Below, in pieces: positions 2,036-10,787 of a stretch of DNA of 64,000 nucleotides. Origin of the DNA: Candidatus Kuenenbacteria bacterium HGW-Kuenenbacteria-1 (GTDB lineage: Bacteria > Patescibacteriota > Patescibacteriia > UBA2591 > PGYQ01); assembly GCA_002839745.1 (NCBI GenBank), contig PGYQ01000001.1:80775-144774 (forward strand), in the 5' to 3' direction. The stretch's first letter is position 1, and each line of letters opens with the position of its first letter. The position numbers and the translations under genes were made by a program. The notes under the pieces were generated by a model. The model ran no database searches. It saw only the letters and a program-made list of their open reading frames with translations, and was not told the origin of the DNA.

Positions 2036-3301
2036 ATGACTAAAAAAATTAATTTAATTTTAATTATCGCGATTATTGTTTTGGTAATTATAAACATTGG
2101 TACTGTTTATTTTTTGTATTTAAAACAAAATAATAAAATTGATAATAAAAAACAAGAAGTTAATATTATTCCAGAAAATAATATTAGCAATGAGAATGAG
2201 ATATTGGCTGATAAAAAATTATCAACCAGTACATCAGAAAAAAATATTGTGGTTGCTTGGAATGAGTGGCCAATTACAACAATTTTTGGGCAATTATTTC
2301 CTTATGCGCAAATCGAGGAAGTAGTAAAGAATTTTAATAGCAAAAAAGAGAACATAGGTAGTCAAATTGATAAGGACGTTTTTGAAGATAGCGTTAAAAT
2401 TTATAAAGTTGGCGTAATAGCGCAAGGTGATTATTTAGGTGGAGAATTGTTTATTTTAAAATGTATATCAGGACAAGAAGGGATGTATAAAGAACAAATG
2501 TTTCGTGTAATTAAAACAAAGGATGATCGTCTTGTTCTACTTTCTAAATATTCACAAGAACCTTTAGATATTCTAAAAGAATTATGTATTATAGATGATA
2601 AAACTGTAATTTCTGATTTAGAAAAATTGCCAGTCAATATTTCAATACTAAATTCCAAAATTAAATTAATAAAAAATTTAAAAGAACCATTTTTATTAAT
2701 TAATGATTATCAAGAACCAAAAAAACTTTTTGAATATAGTAAAAATGAATTTGTTTATAAAGACAAAGAAAGCAATTGTTTTTTTATTAAAGCGCCGGAT
2801 GGAACAGCCAAAGAATATTATTTGGATTTAGATTTTATTGGTTTAGCAGGAAATAGCGAAGGATCTAATAATAAAAGTATGTTTGCCTACGGAGGTATAA
2901 TTCCTAATATGTTGGATTTTATTTGGTTGGATGACAGTAAAAATAGTAATGAATATACTTTTCAAAAAACTGGTATGTGTGGCTCTTTTGGTTGTTATAA
3001 TTACGCCGATTATATTACTGATATTTCTCAATTAGAAAAAGTTGGACAAACGGCAAATAACAATGCTATTTATGAATTAAAAGATAAAAATTTTACTATC
3101 AAAAATGCTGAAAATAGTATTTTAAAAGAAATCTATAATAATTACTATCCGGGATATGATGAAGTAAAAAAACAAGAAAAAACAAAAATAAGTTTTGAAG
3201 AATTTGTCAAAGAACACCCGCTTATTTATTGGCAAGATCCATTTGGAGAATTTATTGAATTTAAAAACGCTAAATATCTTCCAGCTGTTGAATGTAGCTA
3301 A
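2036..3301 (+). CDS. hypothetical membrane-anchored (N-terminal TM), probably extracytoplasmic protein
   Basis: Uninterrupted 421-aa ORF. N-terminal hydrophobic helix LILIIAIIVLVIINIGTVYFLYL. I recognise no domain. Confidence 0.5.
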   Translation: MTKKINLILIIAIIVLVIINIGTVYFLYLKQNNKIDNKKQEVNIIPENNISNENEILADKKLSTSTSEKNIVVAWNEWPITTIFGQLFPYAQIEEVVKNFNSKKENIGSQIDKDVFEDSVKIYKVGVIAQGDYLGGELFILKCISGQEGMYKEQMFRVIKTKDDRLVLLSKYSQEPLDILKELCIIDDKTVISDLEKLPVNISILNSKIKLIKNLKEPFLLINDYQEPKKLFEYSKNEFVYKDKESNCFFIKAPDGTAKEYYLDLDFIGLAGNSEGSNNKSMFAYGGIIPNMLDFIWLDDSKNSNEYTFQKTGMCGSFGCYNYADYITDISQLEKVGQTANNNAIYELKDKNFTIKNAENSILKEIYNNYYPGYDEVKKQEKTKISFEEFVKEHPLIYWQDPFGEFIEFKNAKYLPAVECS

Positions 3302-3345
3302 TTGGTTTAATTCAAACAGAAATTGATGAATTTATTGATTTTTGG

Positions 3346-3573
3346 TTGCCTAAGATGCAAAAAGATAATTATTATTTTATAACTTTTGTTTCGCAAAAAG
3401 AGTTTAATTTAATCGCGCCGTTAAATGTTTTGCCTCAGCCAGACACTGTTATTAAAGTATTTATGGATTATCAAGGTTTAGATAAACCAGTTCCAATTGA
3501 AGAGCAAGAAATTTCAATTCCAAAAAGAAATGGTTTTACTGTTGTTGAATGGGGTGGCGCGTTAAGAAAGTAA
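3346..3573 (+). CDS. small hypothetical protein. The frame is open back to 3298, so the start is uncertain.
   Basis: 75-aa ORF in a different frame from the upstream gene. No recognisable motif. Confidence 0.3.
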   Translation: MPKMQKDNYYFITFVSQKEFNLIAPLNVLPQPDTVIKVFMDYQGLDKPVPIEEQEISIPKRNGFTVVEWGGALRK

Positions 3574-3650
3574 TTAAATTTTATATTGTTATTATTTTAA
3601 ATAAATCTGATGATTATTAAAATAAATAGATTTTTTAAAAAATTTAAAAT

Positions 3651-4499
3651 ATGAAAAATAATCAACTTATTGTTTTTCAAAATAAAGAGATTCGTCGCCA
3701 TTGGGACGAGAAACAAGAAAAATGGTATTTTGCCATTGTTGATATCATTGCTATTTTGACAAATAGCGATAATCCACAAGTTTATTGGCGTGTATTAAAA
3801 AAACGTCTTATTGATGAAGGTTCAAATAAAACCGTTACAAAATGTAACGGTTTGAAAATGGTGGCGACAGATGGGAAAATGCGTTTTACTGATGTTGCAG
3901 ATGTGGAAATGTTATTGAGATTAATTCAGTCAGTTCCAAGTCCAAAAGCAGAGCCAATTAAATTATGGCTGGCAAAAGTTGGTTATGAAAGAATTCAAGA
4001 AATATCTGATCCGGAAAAAGCTTTAAATAGATCAAGAGATTATTGGCAAAAAATGGGCAGAAGTCAAAAATGGATACAACAAAGAATGATGGGGCAGGAA
4101 ATTAGAAATAAACTAACAGATTATTGGAAAAATAATGAAGTTAAGGAGCAGGATGAATACGCTATTTTGACAAACATTATCCATCAAGAATGGAGCGATT
4201 TATCTGTTAAGGAGCATAAAAATTTGAAAAAGTTAAAAACAGAAAATTTACGCGATCATATGTCTGACGCTGAATTAGTTTTTACAGCATTAGCGGAACT
4301 TTCCACTCGTCAAATCGCTGAAACTATGGAAACAAAAGGTTTGGAAGAAAACAAGATTCCAGCTAAAAAAGGCGGAAGAATTGCTAAAAACGCTAGATTA
4401 GAATTAGAACAAAAAACGAAAAAAAGTATAGTAACTGGCAAAAATTTTAAATTGCCTGTTAGAAGAAATAAAAAATTATCTAACAGAAAAAATAACTAA
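3651..4499 (+). CDS. Bro-N domain protein, DNA-damage-inducible protein D (DinD)-like / prophage antirepressor-like
   Basis: N-terminal LIVFQNKEIRRHWDEKQEKWYFAIVDIIAILT ... AEPIKLWLAKVGYERIQEI fits the Bro-N fold as in E. coli DinD. The stop codon abuts the ATG of the next gene (4497-4499 TAA, 4500 ATG). Confidence 0.6.
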   Translation: MKNNQLIVFQNKEIRRHWDEKQEKWYFAIVDIIAILTNSDNPQVYWRVLKKRLIDEGSNKTVTKCNGLKMVATDGKMRFTDVADVEMLLRLIQSVPSPKAEPIKLWLAKVGYERIQEISDPEKALNRSRDYWQKMGRSQKWIQQRMMGQEIRNKLTDYWKNNEVKEQDEYAILTNIIHQEWSDLSVKEHKNLKKLKTENLRDHMSDAELVFTALAELSTRQIAETMETKGLEENKIPAKKGGRIAKNARLELEQKTKKSIVTGKNFKLPVRRNKKLSNRKNN

Positions 4500-6383
4500 A
4501 TGCAAAGAATAAAAACCACAATGCTTTTCTCAATATTAATCCTGCTAATAATAATTCAAGCAGGATTAATTTTTTGTTATCAATCTAGTTTTAAAGATGC
4601 GAGCAAGGGTTTACATCTATCAACTGCGCAAAAAAATAATATCGCTCCAAGCAATATGCCAACTCATTATTCTTATTTTTCAAAAAAAGAATTTTTTGAT
4701 GAGGCGTATGAACAAGCAATTGGACAAATAAAATCAGCTGATTCTAAAATTTATGGCGGAATAATTCCTCATCATTTAATTGTCAAAGATAAAATCGCCG
4801 CGTTTTTTGAAGGCATTAAACAAAATAATTATGAAACAATTATTTTAATCGGACCCAATCATTTTAGACAAGGCAAGTCTGATATTATTTTATCTCAAGC
4901 TCAATGGAAAACTCCTTATGGAATAATTGAACCGGATCTTAATTTAATTGAAAAATTAAAACAAATAGCTGGCATCAATATTGAAGAAGAACCGTTTATT
5001 GCCGAACATTCAATCTCTGGGTTGGTTGGTTTTATTAAAAAAAGTTTTCCTGATTCTCAAATCGTTCCAATCATTTTAAAAAATAAAACTTCTTCAGAAA
5101 AAAGTACGCAATTAGCCAAAGCAATTTATGAAAATGTTGATCCAGAAAAAATTTTAGTTTTGAGTAGCGTTGATTTTTCGCACTATCAGCCAACAGCAGT
5201 CGCCAATTTTCATGACCAAAAAAGCAACTCAGTAATCAGTAATTTTGATTTTGATAAAATTTATAATTTAGAAATAGATTCTCCCTCTTCTATTTATGTT
5301 TTGTTAAAATATTTAGAAAAAATAAAAGCGAAAAATAGCGAATTAATTTTTTCAACCAATTCAGGAACTTTAATACAAAAAACAGACGAACCAACAACCA
5401 GCCATAATTTTTTTTATTTTAAAAAACACGAAGTAAAAAAAGAAAGTTTAATTAACTTTCTTTTTTTTGGCGATTTAATGCTTGATCGCAATGTTGGTCA
5501 AAAAATAAAACAACATGGGTTAGATTATTTTTTTTCTAAATTGGCTGGTGAAGAGAATAGATTTTTTCAAGGCATTGATATAATTAGCGCTAATTTAGAA
5601 GGCGCGACGACAAATAATGGCGCTCATTACAATCCAAAAATGGCTTATGATTTTGCTTTTAATCCCGAGATTATAAAAGCATTAAAAAAATATCATTTTA
5701 ATTTTTTTAATTTGGCGAATAATCATTTTTCAGATCAAGGTGAAAAAGGAATAACAGAAACTACGCAAAATTTAGACAAATTAAAATTAAATTATTCTGG
5801 TTGTCGCGATGGAATGATTGATGAAAAATGCGCAAGCAAAATTATTGAAATAGACAATCGTAAAATTGGTTTAATTGGATTAAGTATGGTTTATAGCGAA
5901 TTAGACAAGAAAAAGCTTGATGATATTTTTAAAAAAATAAAAAATAAAACTGATTTAATAATTGTTAATATTCATTGGGGAACAGAATATAGTCATAAAT
6001 TCAGTAAAACCCAGCAAGAAATAGCTTATCAATTAATTGACGCTGGAGCTGATATTGTTATTGGTCATCATCCGCATGTTGTTCAAGGAATGGAAATTTA
6101 TCGTAATAAACCAATTTTTTATTCTTTGGGTAATTTTATTTTTGATCAATATTTTTCAAAAGACACGCAAGAAGGATTGGCGGTTGGTGTAAATGTAATT
6201 CAATCAAAAGAACAAAATAAGCTTGAATTTTATTTATTTCCTTTTAAATCAATAGCCAGTCAAGTAAAATTAATGGACAACAAAGAAAAAAATAAATTTT
6301 TAGAAAATTTTATTAATTGGTCAAACATTGACGAAAAAATTATTGAGCAAATTAAAAGTAATAAAATAGAATTTAATTATTAA
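4500..6383 (+). CDS. membrane-anchored fusion protein: MEMO1/AmmeMemoRadiSam-system-protein-B-like domain plus a CapA/PgsA-type metallophosphoesterase domain (poly-gamma-glutamate capsule biosynthesis family)
   Basis: N-terminal TM. The MEMO-like signatures are IYGGIIPHHLIV, TIILIGPNHF, QWKTPYGII, AEHSI, VLSSVDFSHY. The CapA-like signatures are LANNHFSDQGEKG, IVNIHWGTEYS, IVIGHHPHVVQGMEIY, FYSLGNFIFDQ. Confidence 0.65.
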   Translation: MQRIKTTMLFSILILLIIIQAGLIFCYQSSFKDASKGLHLSTAQKNNIAPSNMPTHYSYFSKKEFFDEAYEQAIGQIKSADSKIYGGIIPHHLIVKDKIAAFFEGIKQNNYETIILIGPNHFRQGKSDIILSQAQWKTPYGIIEPDLNLIEKLKQIAGINIEEEPFIAEHSISGLVGFIKKSFPDSQIVPIILKNKTSSEKSTQLAKAIYENVDPEKILVLSSVDFSHYQPTAVANFHDQKSNSVISNFDFDKIYNLEIDSPSSIYVLLKYLEKIKAKNSELIFSTNSGTLIQKTDEPTTSHNFFYFKKHEVKKESLINFLFFGDLMLDRNVGQKIKQHGLDYFFSKLAGEENRFFQGIDIISANLEGATTNNGAHYNPKMAYDFAFNPEIIKALKKYHFNFFNLANNHFSDQGEKGITETTQNLDKLKLNYSGCRDGMIDEKCASKIIEIDNRKIGLIGLSMVYSELDKKKLDDIFKKIKNKTDLIIVNIHWGTEYSHKFSKTQQEIAYQLIDAGADIVIGHHPHVVQGMEIYRNKPIFYSLGNFIFDQYFSKDTQEGLAVGVNVIQSKEQNKLEFYLFPFKSIASQVKLMDNKEKNKFLENFINWSNIDEKIIEQIKSNKIEFNY

Positions 6384-9392: not shown

Positions 9393-10787
9393 ATGGATAA
9401 ATTGTTATATAAAATTAAAAAATATATTCCATTAAAAATCTTTAAAACTTTACGGCCTTTTTATCATTTTTTATTTAGCATTGCATCGGCAATCTGGTAT
9501 CGCTTTCCATCTGATAAATTAATTGTTATTGGTATTACCGGAACAACAGGTAAAACCACGAGCGTTTTTTTAATGGCAAAGATGTTGAGTGATATAGGTT
9601 ATAAAGTTGGATATATTTCTACGGCCATGTTCAGCGATGGTAAAAAAGAATGGTTAAACGATAAAAAAATGACTATGCCTGGTCGTTTTTTTATTCAAAA
9701 AATGTTATTTGAAATGGTAAAAAATAAATGTCATTATGCTATTGTTGAAACAACATCAGAAGGTATTGAGCAATTTCGTCATCGTTTTATTAATTATGAT
9801 ATTTTAATTTTTACAGGTCTTTATCCAGAGCATATAGAATCTCATGGTAGTTTTGAAAATTATCGTAAAGCTAAAGGCAAACTATTTGCTTATTTGAAAA
9901 AATGTCATACAAAATATGTTGATGATAAAAAAGTTGTAAAATTAGCTGATAGCGGTATTAAAAAAATTATTTTAAATAAAATTAAAAAAATTATTATTAT
10001 TAATACTGATGATAAAGAAGCTGATTATTTTTTTAATTTTTGGGCTGAAGAAAAAATGGGATATAAAATTGATAATGAAAATTATCAAAATAAATATAAT
10101 ATAATTAAATATGGAAAAATAAAATCAGATATACATGGCATTAATTTTATTGTTAATAATCTTGAAATAAAATTAAACATATTAGGTGAATTTAATGTTT
10201 CCAATGCTATGAATGCAGTTTGTCTTGGTTTATCTCAAGGGATTGATTTGGCAAAAATTGCTGATAGTTTAAGTAAAATTCAGCAAGTGCCTGGGAGATT
10301 GGAATTAATTAAAGAAGCGCAACCTTTTACTATAATAGTTGATTATTCTTTTGAGCCTGGAGCAATGACAAAACTTTATGAAACCATTGAAGTTTTGCCA
10401 CATCAAAAGATTATTCATCTTTTGGGTTCTTGTGGCGGTGGGAGAGATACGTCTTATAGAAGTGAAAAAGGAAAAATTGCTGGAGCTAAAGCGGATATAG
10501 TAATTATTACTAATGAAGATCCTTATGATGAAGATCCTCAAAATATAATTAATCAGGTTTCATTGGGCGCTATAAGTTCCGGTAAAATTTTAGAAAAAAA
10601 TTTATTTAAAATTTTAGACAGAAGAGATGCAATTCATAAAGCATTATCTCTAGCTAAAGAAGGGGATTTAGTTTTAATCACAGGCAAAGGTTGCGAACAA
10701 GCAATTTGTGTAGCATCAGGAGAAAAAATCCCATGGGATGATAGGAGAGTTGTTAAAGAAGAATTAAAAGATTTTTTATTTATATAA
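9393..10787 (+). CDS. murE: Mur ligase family protein, MurE-like (UDP-MurNAc-tripeptide synthetase)
   Basis: IGITGTTGKTTSVFL, ETTSEGIEQFR, ILIFTGLYPEHIESHGSFENYRKAKGKLF, DYSFEPGAM. These are the canonical Mur ligase ATP-binding motifs. Confidence 0.7.
   Translation: MDKLLYKIKKYIPLKIFKTLRPFYHFLFSIASAIWYRFPSDKLIVIGITGTTGKTTSVFLMAKMLSDIGYKVGYISTAMFSDGKKEWLNDKKMTMPGRFFIQKMLFEMVKNKCHYAIVETTSEGIEQFRHRFINYDILIFTGLYPEHIESHGSFENYRKAKGKLFAYLKKCHTKYVDDKKVVKLADSGIKKIILNKIKKIIIINTDDKEADYFFNFWAEEKMGYKIDNENYQNKYNIIKYGKIKSDIHGINFIVNNLEIKLNILGEFNVSNAMNAVCLGLSQGIDLAKIADSLSKIQQVPGRLELIKEAQPFTIIVDYSFEPGAMTKLYETIEVLPHQKIIHLLGSCGGGRDTSYRSEKGKIAGAKADIVIITNEDPYDEDPQNIINQVSLGAISSGKILEKNLFKILDRRDAIHKALSLAKEGDLVLITGKGCEQAICVASGEKIPWDDRRVVKEELKDFLFI

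What the first reader, a model, noticed from the sequence alone, without database searches (positions are those of the whole stretch)
4500..6383. Unusual domain fusion: extracytoplasmic MEMO1-like domain joined to a CapA/PgsA-type metallophosphoesterase, translationally coupled to the Bro-N gene
Residues about 60-300 carry the MEMO/AmmeMemoRadiSam-B hallmarks (IIPHH, GPNHF, EHSI, SVDFSHY). Residues about 310-627 carry CapA/PgsA poly-gamma-glutamate family motifs (LANNHFSDQG, HWGTEYS, IGHHPHVVQG, SLGNFIFD). I am not aware of this architecture. MEMO normally partners with AmrS/AMMECR1, and neither is present here. The ATG at 4500 directly abuts the Bro-N stop at 4499, implying co-expression of a DNA-binding, phage-type regulator with an envelope enzyme.
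Basis: partly seen in the sequence, partly recalled or inferred. Interest (0 to 1): 0.55.

Follow-up and report, generated by a model that had tools for sequence, protein, structure and literature searches.

The report
Membrane-anchored Memo–CapA fusion enzyme of Patescibacteria
The gene really does encode a membrane-anchored, outward-facing protein that joins a Memo-like domain to a CapA-like domain, but this design is common in ultra-small Patescibacteria, its conserved companion is an unannotated ~600-residue envelope protein that is broken in this genome, and the phage-type Bro-N gene is a one-off insertion.

Summary
ORF 4500-6383 (627 aa) has an N-terminal membrane anchor, a Memo domain (PF01875, E 2.5e-27) and a PGA_cap/CapA domain (PF09587, E 4e-61). 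The AlphaFold model is confident (pLDDT 92, pTM 0.87). The metal and catalytic residues of both domains are conserved.

The fusion is not rare. All 120 best 90%-identity clusters and 127 of the 150 best 50%-identity representatives carry both domains, mostly from Patescibacteria. Pipelines name it after one half only, and I found no paper on it.

The Bro-N gene abuts the start codon but is absent from all other loci retrieved. It is a phage-family gene (phrog_15286) inserted here.

The conserved neighbour is a ~600-aa membrane-anchored protein with no Pfam, NCBIfam, PDB or Foldseek match. It is adjacent in 22 of 29 fused loci and 0 of 54 CapA-only loci. In this window it has lost 90 residues of its most conserved domain and changed frame.

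No PgsB or PgsC is nearby; the nearby Mur ligase is MurE.

Most likely this is an envelope-modifying two-protein module. The chemistry is inferred, not shown: metal-dependent acid/base catalysis as in MslH and PgsA.

The parts
4500..6383 (+). Memo-PGA_cap fusion gene (627 aa), identical to NCBI 'AmmeMemoRadiSam system protein B' of Candidatus Kuenenbacteria bacterium HGW-Kuenenbacteria-1
   Evidence: ORF. Both Pfam domains. 100% identical database entry P0001. No deviation at any of 130 family columns with at least 90% consensus.
4515..4604 (+). N-terminal signal-anchor transmembrane helix (residues 6-35)
   Evidence: AlphaFold2 helix at 6-35. Kyte-Doolittle 2.79 for the 19-mer starting at residue 8. 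113 of 127 fused representatives have such a segment before the Memo domain.
4662..5423 (+). Memo / LigB-superfamily domain (residues about 55-308)
   Evidence: Pfam PF01875 at 86-291. TIGR04336 at 67-295. Foldseek MEMO1 3bcz, TM 0.76. A profile alignment to MEMO1 pairs GPNH, EHSI and SVDFSHY with MEMO1 GPSH, EHSI and SSDFCHW. H91, H92, H121, D225 and H228 are invariant.
5442..6380 (+). PGA_cap / CapA calcineurin-fold domain (residues about 315-627)
   Evidence: Pfam PF09587 at 321-550. MslH matches by sequence (E 6e-14) and by fold (E 1e-16). D325, E367, N408, H409, D412, H492, H524 and H526 are invariant.
2036..3301 (+). N-terminal fragment (421 aa) of the conserved partner gene, truncated
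   Evidence: Matches residues about 30-430 of the 595-613 aa partners of relatives (E 2e-62 to 2e-77). Deposited as hypothetical protein CVV26_00410.
3301..3573 (+). C-terminal remnant of the partner gene in another reading frame (listed ORF 3346-3573)
   Evidence: tblastn matches partner residues 506-595 / 520-609 at 63-64% identity in frame 1, whereas the N-terminal fragment is in frame 2. Ninety residues of the most conserved core are missing.
3651..4499 (+). Bro-N gene (282 aa), a lineage-specific insertion between the partner and the fusion gene (inserted segment about 3574-4499)
   Evidence: Pfam Bro-N 36.4 bits. phrog_15286, E 3e-94, full length. No homologue in the other loci. 45-55% identical copies on small 'Bacteriophage sp.' contigs.

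Best explanation
ORF 4500-6383 encodes a type-II membrane-anchored enzyme that faces outward and has two metal-binding domains: a divergent Memo (LigB-superfamily) domain packed against a PGA_cap/CapA calcineurin-fold domain. It belongs to a large family, mostly from Patescibacteria, whose conserved functional partner is an adjacent, usually translationally coupled gene. That gene encodes a ~600-aa membrane-anchored protein whose C-terminal ~190-aa domain belongs to an unannotated family. The pair most likely forms a cell-envelope modification module. In this genome the module has been rearranged: the partner lost 90 residues of its core domain and changed frame, and a phage-family Bro-N gene was inserted exactly at the partner/fusion junction. 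The fusion gene is therefore now read directly after Bro-N. Shown here: the domains, the topology, the residue conservation, the family size, the partner linkage, the deletion and the insertion. Inferred: (1) The PGA_cap domain performs metal-dependent acid/base chemistry on a carboxylate-bearing peptide-like envelope substrate, by analogy with MslH (C-terminal peptide epimerase) and PgsA (sets the D/L ratio of poly-gamma-glutamate). (2) The Memo domain supplies a second metal site for substrate binding or redox. (3) The substrate is the partner protein or a wall peptide.
For: Both domains and their boundaries are confirmed. The model has pTM 0.87, which indicates a fixed inter-domain packing. 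The family is large: 120 of 120 and 127 of 150 top clusters are fused, and at least 585 GTDB species genomes hold relatives. The partner is adjacent in 22 of 29 distinct fused loci and in 0 of 54 CapA-only loci (Fisher p = 2e-14), with gaps of 1-22 nt or short overlaps in most. The next most frequent neighbour, translin, occurs in only 5 loci. A 207-aa protein made of the partner's C-terminal domain alone also sits next to a fusion gene. Of the eight MslH catalytic or ligand residues, seven are conserved: D11, E44, N87, H88, D91, H259 and H295 correspond to D325, E367, N408, H409, D412, H492 and H526. PgsA shifts the D/L ratio of poly-gamma-glutamate from 5/95 to 75/25 (PMC6029982). The equivalents of MEMO1 H81, D189 and H192 are conserved. 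The fusion protein deviates at 0 of 130 highly conserved family columns.
Against: No biochemical data exist for any member. The PGA_cap domain keeps H524 where MslH has Gly293, and it has Gly494 where MslH has the Ca ligand His261. Its metal site therefore looks like the two-metal phosphoesterase type (YmdB) rather than the one-Ca MslH type, so phosphoester hydrolysis is equally compatible. Seven of 29 fused loci lack an adjacent partner. These include the Caldisericum- and Atribacteria-labelled loci. CapA-only relatives at 52-58% identity exist without Memo or the partner. The partner is broken in this genome while the fusion gene looks fully conserved, which is odd if the two are obligate partners.
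Confidence: 0.55

Rival explanations
1. One reading: the Bro-N DNA-binding, phage-type regulator and the envelope enzyme form a functional, translationally coupled pair.
For: The Bro-N stop (TAA 4497-4499) directly abuts ATG 4500. The scan found no plus-strand terminator-like site between 2036 and 6383, so co-transcription is plausible.
Against: No Bro-N homologue was found in any of the other 89 loci searched. In relatives the gene abutting the fusion start is the conserved partner. The Bro-N protein is a full-length member of phage family phrog_15286, and its closest collection matches are small phage contigs.
Confidence: 0.04
2. It is the CapA/PgsA component of a poly-gamma-glutamate capsule synthase.
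For: There is a strong PGA_cap Pfam match. The membrane-anchored, outward-facing topology resembles PgsA. JGI names some homologues 'poly-gamma-glutamate synthesis protein'.
Against: No PgsB- or PgsC-like family recurs next to the 29 fused loci. The only nearby Mur-type ligase in the window (9393-10787) is MurE, with TIGR01085 at 326 bits against a cut-off of 257. The other neighbours are housekeeping genes. This reading explains neither the Memo domain nor the partner.
Confidence: 0.05
3. It is an extracytoplasmic two-metal phosphoesterase or nucleotidase that scavenges phosphate or nucleosides for a metabolically reduced cell, with the Memo domain as an accessory binding module.
For: The full two-metal ligand set is invariant (D325, N365/E367, N408, H492, H524-x-H526, plus the H409/D412 dyad). 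This includes H524, which the one-metal MslH lacks (PMC10406935). Foldseek also matches YmdB and 5'-nucleotidases at E about 1e-8.
Against: Those Foldseek matches reflect the shared fold. The two PGA_cap members with functional data (MslH and PgsA) point to peptide stereochemistry, not phosphoester hydrolysis. Scavenging does not explain the tight linkage to the partner or to Memo.
Confidence: 0.2
4. In this genome the module is decaying: with the partner broken, the fusion gene is a non-functional leftover.
For: The partner lacks its most conserved 90 residues and is frameshifted. A foreign gene has been inserted at the operon junction.
Against: The fusion ORF is intact and matches the family consensus at all 130 columns with at least 90% conservation, the best of 117 members. 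CapA-only and partner-less fused loci exist, so the enzyme may work alone. The deletion could also be recent or an assembly error.
Confidence: 0.1

Closest known systems
MEMO1 / AmmeMemoRadiSam system protein B (PF01875, TIGR04336; PDB 3BCZ, 7KQ8, 7L5C)
   Same: Same fold (Foldseek TM 0.76). HMM scores are above the cut-offs. The equivalents of MEMO1 H81, D189 and H192 and the EHSI motif are conserved.
   Different: Here the domain is extracytoplasmic, membrane-anchored and fused to PGA_cap. No AMMECR1 or radical-SAM neighbour is present. It scores only 96 bits, against 185 bits for the canonical Memo half of the cytoplasmic Memo-AMMECR1 protein of relatives. The equivalent of the metal-site residue Cys244 could not be assigned; the region carries an invariant D260-S261.
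PgsA / CapA of the Bacillus PgsBCA poly-gamma-glutamate synthase (PF09587)
   Same: Same Pfam family (E 4e-61). It also has an N-terminal membrane anchor with an outward-facing catalytic domain. PgsA influences the stereochemistry of a peptide-like polymer (PMC6029982).
   Different: No pgsB or pgsC is next to it in the window or in 29 related loci. It carries an extra Memo domain and has a different conserved partner.
MslH, lasso-peptide C-terminal Trp epimerase (PDB 8GQ9/8ITG; NF038314)
   Same: Best solved-structure match by sequence (E 6e-14) and by fold (E 1e-16). Both His/Asp dyads and three of the four Ca ligands are conserved.
   Different: It scores 66.7 bits against the 700-bit equivalog cut-off. 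It has Gly494 in place of the ligand His261, and His524 in place of Gly293, which restores a two-metal type H-x-H motif. There is no lasso-peptide cluster, and it is membrane-anchored rather than cytoplasmic.
YmdB-type two-metal calcineurin-like phosphoesterases (PDB 4B2O)
   Same: Same fold (Foldseek E 2e-8). The pattern of metal ligands and the catalytic His/Asp dyad match those listed for YmdB in PMC10406935.
   Different: Similarity is only at the superfamily level. No phosphoesterase activity is known for any PGA_cap member that I could find.

Membership tests
Memo superfamily domain (PF01875) | HMM match above the curated cut-off, and the Memo fold | tested here: met
   96.2 bits against a cut-off of 27. 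TIGR04336 109 bits against 26. Foldseek MEMO1 E 4e-15, TM 0.76.
Memo superfamily domain (PF01875) | Metal-site residues (MEMO1 His49, His81, Asp189, His192, Cys244) | tested here: inconclusive
   The equivalents of H81, D189 and H192 (H121, D225, H228) align and are invariant. The His49 equivalent (H91/H92) is inferred from its position in the Pfam match only. The Cys244 equivalent could not be assigned.
AmmeMemoRadiSam system (the name NCBI gives this protein) | Gene neighbourhood or fusion with AMMECR1 (protein A) and the radical-SAM protein AmrS | tested here: not met
   No such family is among the window neighbours or among the recurrent neighbours of 29 fused loci. The Memo HMM hits only this ORF in the 64-kb window. 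Relatives carry a separate Memo-AMMECR1 protein.
AmmeMemoRadiSam system (the name NCBI gives this protein) | Cytoplasmic location (needed to act with a radical-SAM enzyme; from general knowledge) | tested here: not met
   N-terminal signal anchor, with the rest predicted to lie outside the membrane.
PGA_cap / CapA family (PF09587) | HMM match above the cut-off, and a calcineurin-like fold with conserved ligand motifs | tested here: met
   207 bits against a cut-off of 27, covering profile positions 3-255 of 255. The GD, NLE, NNHxxD, HWGxEY and GHHPH motifs are invariant. Foldseek matches MslH and YmdB.
PgsBCA poly-gamma-glutamate synthase (the CapA/PgsA role) | Operon with the amide ligase PgsB/CapB and the membrane protein PgsC/CapC | tested here: not met
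   Not adjacent in the window (the ligase is MurE) or in related loci. The rest of the genome could not be searched.
MslH-type peptide epimerase (NF038314) | Equivalog HMM cut-off | tested here: not met
   66.7 bits against 700, and only residues 467-547 match.
MslH-type peptide epimerase (NF038314) | Catalytic dyads His88/Asp91 and His295/Asp11; Ca ligands Glu44, Asn87, His259, His261 | tested here: inconclusive
   Seven of eight are conserved. The His261 position is Gly494, and an extra His524 stands where MslH has Gly293. The Asp11 to D325 assignment rests on motif position, not on an alignment.
MslH-type peptide epimerase (NF038314) | Epimerase activity on a peptide C-terminus | not testable with these tools
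   Needs enzymology.
   No Bro-N homologue in any of the other 89 loci searched.
Partner + Memo-PGA_cap two-gene module (proposed here) | Adjacent, same-strand partner gene with the conserved C-terminal domain | tested here: inconclusive
   The family-wide linkage is strong: 22 of 29 against 0 of 54. In this window the partner is split and lacks 90 core residues, and it is separated from the fusion gene by the Bro-N insertion.

The most novel reading that the evidence does not exclude
The Memo-PGA_cap ectoenzyme and its unannotated partner form a Patescibacteria-wide envelope machine. In it, a Memo domain works outside the cell and without AMMECR1 or a radical-SAM enzyme, together with a CapA-type acid/base metal centre, to modify a protein or wall peptide post-translationally (for example by epimerisation or oxidation). 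The partner's Tyr/Trp-rich C-terminal domain would be either the substrate or the specificity subunit. This would give the first concrete biochemical context for bacterial Memo and a new envelope-maturation pathway in ultra-small bacteria.
Probability: 0.25. Interest if true: 0.7.

Novelty: new variant of a known kind. Interest (0 to 1): 0.45.

Why it matters
Memo and CapA-family proteins are both widespread, and what most of them do remains poorly understood. A rigid, conserved fusion of the two placed outside the membrane, tightly linked to a third, unannotated protein family of thousands of members, gives three linked leads to function in Patescibacteria, which are rarely cultivated and whose envelope biology is largely unknown. 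It also shows that current database names for these proteins are misleading. 'AmmeMemoRadiSam system protein B' implies a system that is not there, and 'poly-gamma-glutamate synthesis protein' implies a PgsBC pathway that is not encoded nearby. For this window specifically, the apparent regulator-enzyme coupling is an accident of a phage-gene insertion into a conserved operon.

Tried and rejected
1. Partner annotation. Pfam on single members and on all 29 aligned members, NCBIfam, a profile search of PDB sequences and Foldseek of a pLDDT-83 model against PDB all gave nothing significant.
2. A single-sequence phmmer search of the Memo domain against PDB found only noise. A 13-sequence profile was needed to reach MEMO1.
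3. A search for target-site duplications or terminal inverted repeats around the Bro-N insertion found only short AT-rich chance repeats.
4. The promoter and terminator scan is uninformative at 27.5% GC: 46 promoter-like sites against 29.5 expected, and no plus-strand terminator.
5. GC content does not mark Bro-N as foreign: 31.8% against 27.5% for the window, while rarA is 33.6%.
6. Literature searches for the fusion (Memo + PGA_cap; Patescibacteria + CapA/poly-gamma-glutamate; AmmeMemoRadiSam) found no relevant paper.
7. I considered whether the nearby Mur-type ligase could be a PgsB. It is MurE.
8. I could not examine the geometry of the two active sites because model coordinates are not exposed.
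9. Record titles such as 'uncultured Gammaproteobacteria' on ~0.9-Mb genomes look unreliable. I did not verify the non-Patescibacteria labels (Caldisericum, Atribacteria, Spirochaetales, Planctomycetota).
Full report
**1. Observation**

ORF 4500..6383 on the plus strand starts with ATG and encodes 627 residues.

- Pfam finds PGA_cap (PF09587) at residues 321-550, with E 4.2e-61 and 207 bits against a cut-off of 27.
- Pfam finds Memo (PF01875) at residues 86-291, with E 2.5e-27 and 96 bits against a cut-off of 27.
- NCBIfam TIGR04336 (AmmeMemoRadiSam system protein B) scores 109 bits against a cut-off of 26. The MslH equivalog model scores only 66.7 bits against 700.
- An AlphaFold2 model built on a 43-sequence alignment is confident (mean pLDDT 92, pTM 0.87). 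It shows a helix at 6-35, a disordered linker at 34-49, an alpha/beta domain at about 55-308 and a second domain at about 315-627.
- Foldseek against the PDB matches the C-terminal half to the lasso-peptide epimerase MslH (E 1e-16). It matches the N-terminal half to human MEMO1 (E 4e-15, target TM 0.76). LigB-type dioxygenases, YmdB and 5'-nucleotidases follow further down.
- The only strongly hydrophobic segment is at residues 8-26 (Kyte-Doolittle 2.79), preceded by R3 and K5. This fits a signal anchor with the rest of the protein outside the membrane. 113 of 127 fused relatives have such a segment.

The upstream ORF 3651..4499 has a Bro-N domain (36.4 bits against a cut-off of 25.6). Its TAA at 4497-4499 directly precedes ATG 4500.

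**2. How common the architecture is**

The protein is 100% identical to a deposited entry of Candidatus Kuenenbacteria bacterium HGW-Kuenenbacteria-1, which NCBI names 'AmmeMemoRadiSam system protein B'.

- All 120 best 90%-identity clusters carry both PF09587 and PF01875. They are about 560-660 aa long and come mostly from Patescibacteria. Where named at all, they are called 'AmmeMemoRadiSam system protein B', 'CapA' or 'poly-gamma-glutamate synthesis protein'.
- In the exhaustive search of 50%-identity representatives, 29,335 proteins match at E <= 1e-3 and 1,898 at E <= 1e-30. Of the best 150, 127 have both domains, 21 have CapA only and 2 have Memo only.
- Fused genes appear in many Patescibacteria lineages. 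They also appear on contigs labelled Caldisericum, Atribacteria (both complete fusions) and Spirochaetales. Several record titles are clearly unreliable, so I did not verify these labels.

The fusion is thus common and machine-annotated, but always by one half only. Full-text searches found no paper describing it.

**3. The conserved neighbour is not Bro-N**

Relatives have a 586-613 aa gene with no Pfam hit immediately next to the fusion gene. I used HMMs built here for the Memo half, the CapA half and this partner.

- The partner is adjacent and on the same strand in 22 of 29 distinct fused loci. It is usually directly upstream with a gap of 1-22 nt or a short overlap, and is directly downstream in four loci.
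- It is adjacent in 0 of 54 loci that have a stand-alone CapA gene (Fisher p = 2e-14).
- No other neighbour recurs in more than 5 loci.
- The Bro-N protein has no homologue in any of the other 89 loci searched.
- The Bro-N protein is a full-length member of phage family phrog_15286 (E 3e-94). Its only matches in the phage collection are four small 'Bacteriophage sp.' contigs at 39-55% identity.

**4. What happened in this window**

ORF 2036-3301 (421 aa) aligns to residues about 30-430 of the partner. A second piece at 3301-3573 aligns to the last 90 residues in a different reading frame. Ninety residues in between are missing: 416-505 of the closest partner.

The missing stretch is the most conserved part of the whole protein, with the consensus CGKPVIYLYPE ... 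YPYLFWEG .... After the remnant's stop at 3573 comes a 926-nt segment (3574-4499) that holds the Bro-N gene and ends exactly at the fusion start. In relatives the partner stop and the fusion ATG lie 1-9 nt apart or overlap.

I found no flanking target duplication or inverted repeat. No plus-strand terminator-like site lies between 2036 and 6383. The fusion gene shows no decay: it matches the family consensus at all 130 columns with at least 90% conservation, the best of 117 members.

**5. The partner**

It has an N-terminal hydrophobic helix, a low-complexity linker, beta-rich middle domains and a C-terminal alpha/beta domain (model pLDDT 83, pTM 0.60).

- It has no significant match in Pfam, NCBIfam, PDB sequences or PDB folds.
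- A profile of the C-terminal ~190 residues finds at least 3,079 proteins with no Pfam domain over that region.
- One stand-alone 207-aa form sits directly downstream of a fusion gene.
- Two forms on contigs labelled Eubacteriales or of Clostridia type are not linked to Memo or CapA.

**6. Active sites**

Residues D325, E367, N408, H409, D412, H492, H524 and H526 are invariant in the family. Alignment to MslH, together with the residue roles reported for MslH (PMC10406935), gives the following correspondences.

| MslH residue | This protein |
|---|---|
| E44 | E367 |
| N87 | N408 |
| H88 | H409 |
| D91 | D412 |
| H259 | H492 |
| H295 | H526 |
| D11 | D325 (by motif position only) |
| H261 (Ca ligand) | Gly494 |
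| Gly293 | H524 |

The H524-P-H526 motif therefore resembles the two-metal His175/His177 pair of YmdB.

In the Memo half, a profile alignment to MEMO1 pairs GPNH, EHSI and SVDFSHY with MEMO1 GPSH, EHSI and SSDFCHW. The equivalents of H81, D189 and H192 are thus kept. The His49 equivalent is inferred, and the Cys244 equivalent could not be assigned.

**7. What it is not**

It is not a component of the AmmeMemoRadiSam system.
- No AMMECR1 or radical-SAM neighbour occurs in the window or in related loci.
- The domain lies outside the cell.
- Relatives carry a separate canonical Memo-AMMECR1 protein of 508 aa, whose Memo half scores 185 bits.

It is not demonstrably a poly-gamma-glutamate synthase subunit.
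- No pgsB or pgsC is adjacent.
- The nearby Mur-type ligase is MurE.
- The other neighbours are housekeeping genes: an AddB-like nuclease, RarA, a sigma factor, an MFS transporter and IF3.

**8. Most likely mechanism**

The PGA_cap members for which I found functional evidence both concern the stereochemistry of a peptide-like substrate. MslH epimerises a peptide's C-terminal residue by metal-assisted acid/base catalysis. PgsA shifts the D/L ratio of poly-gamma-glutamate from 5/95 to 75/25 (PMC6029982).

I therefore favour an envelope-modifying role. In this reading the CapA half acts on a carboxylate-bearing peptide substrate, either the partner or a wall peptide. The Memo half contributes a second metal site, and the partner is the substrate or the specificity subunit. 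This step is inference.

The intact two-metal ligand set keeps a phosphoesterase activity as a serious rival. Spirochaete-labelled variants retain Memo and the partner but only the last third of PGA_cap. This suggests that the Memo-partner link is the core of the module.

**9. Verdict**

The domain fusion is real and its function is unknown. The Bro-N coupling is a local accident of insertion. Interest is moderate: this is a widespread, mis-named two-gene envelope module of unknown function in Patescibacteria that gives a lead on Memo and CapA biochemistry, with no demonstrated mechanism.

Noticed in passing
window 2036-3573: The conserved partner gene is split into a 421-aa ORF and a 75-aa ORF (alignable from 3301). 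It lacks 90 residues of its most conserved domain and changes reading frame at 3298/3301. It is either a pseudogene or an assembly error. NCBI annotates the first piece as an ordinary hypothetical protein.
   Followed up: yes
partner C-terminal domain (P0268 residues about 405-597; window 3301-3573 holds its last 90 residues): An unannotated ~190-aa domain family (consensus CGKPVIYLYPE...YPYLFWEG...EWGG) with at least 3,079 database members and no Pfam, NCBIfam, PDB or Foldseek match. It occurs as the end of ~600-aa proteins, as stand-alone ~200-aa proteins, and fused to SH3_3 or TIG domains.
   Followed up: partly
L087 10660-12186 and L088 10521-12047: Close relatives encode a 508-aa cytoplasmic Memo-AMMECR1 fusion about 3 kb downstream of the envelope Memo-PGA_cap gene. 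These genomes therefore hold two very different Memo paralogues. None is present in this 64-kb window.
   Followed up: partly
L043 5689-7206 and L065 6875-8332 (contigs labelled Spirochaetales/Spirochaetaceae): Variants of 485-505 aa keep the Memo domain and the adjacent partner, but only the last third of the PGA_cap domain.
   Followed up: partly
L013 6860-8878: Memo (296 aa) and PGA_cap (374 aa) are encoded as two adjacent genes instead of one. This is either a fission variant or a frameshift.
   Followed up: no
L087 8060-8823 and L088 7921-8684: An IS110-family transposase (DEDD_Tnp_IS110 plus Transposase_20, called as two ORFs) is inserted directly downstream of the fusion gene in the closest long-contig relatives. 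This region seems prone to insertions.
   Followed up: no
L005, L006, L087, L088, L089 upstream of the partner: The closest relatives share the gene order T2SSE (PilB-like ATPase) - translin - partner - fusion. This window instead has an AddB-like helicase-nuclease (1-1848) upstream, so synteny is broken on that side as well.
   Followed up: no
loci L013-L029 and L078 (record titles): Many records titled 'uncultured Gammaproteobacteria' (for example a 0.93-Mb chromosome, OZ246400.1) carry these Patescibacteria-type genes. The titles look like placeholder or incorrect taxonomy.
   Followed up: no
window 3651-4499: Only the first ~110 residues of the Bro-N protein match Pfam. The whole 282 aa matches phrog_15286 (function unknown), and there is a sub-threshold hit to pPIWI_RE_Z (24 bits against a cut-off of 25).
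   Followed up: partly
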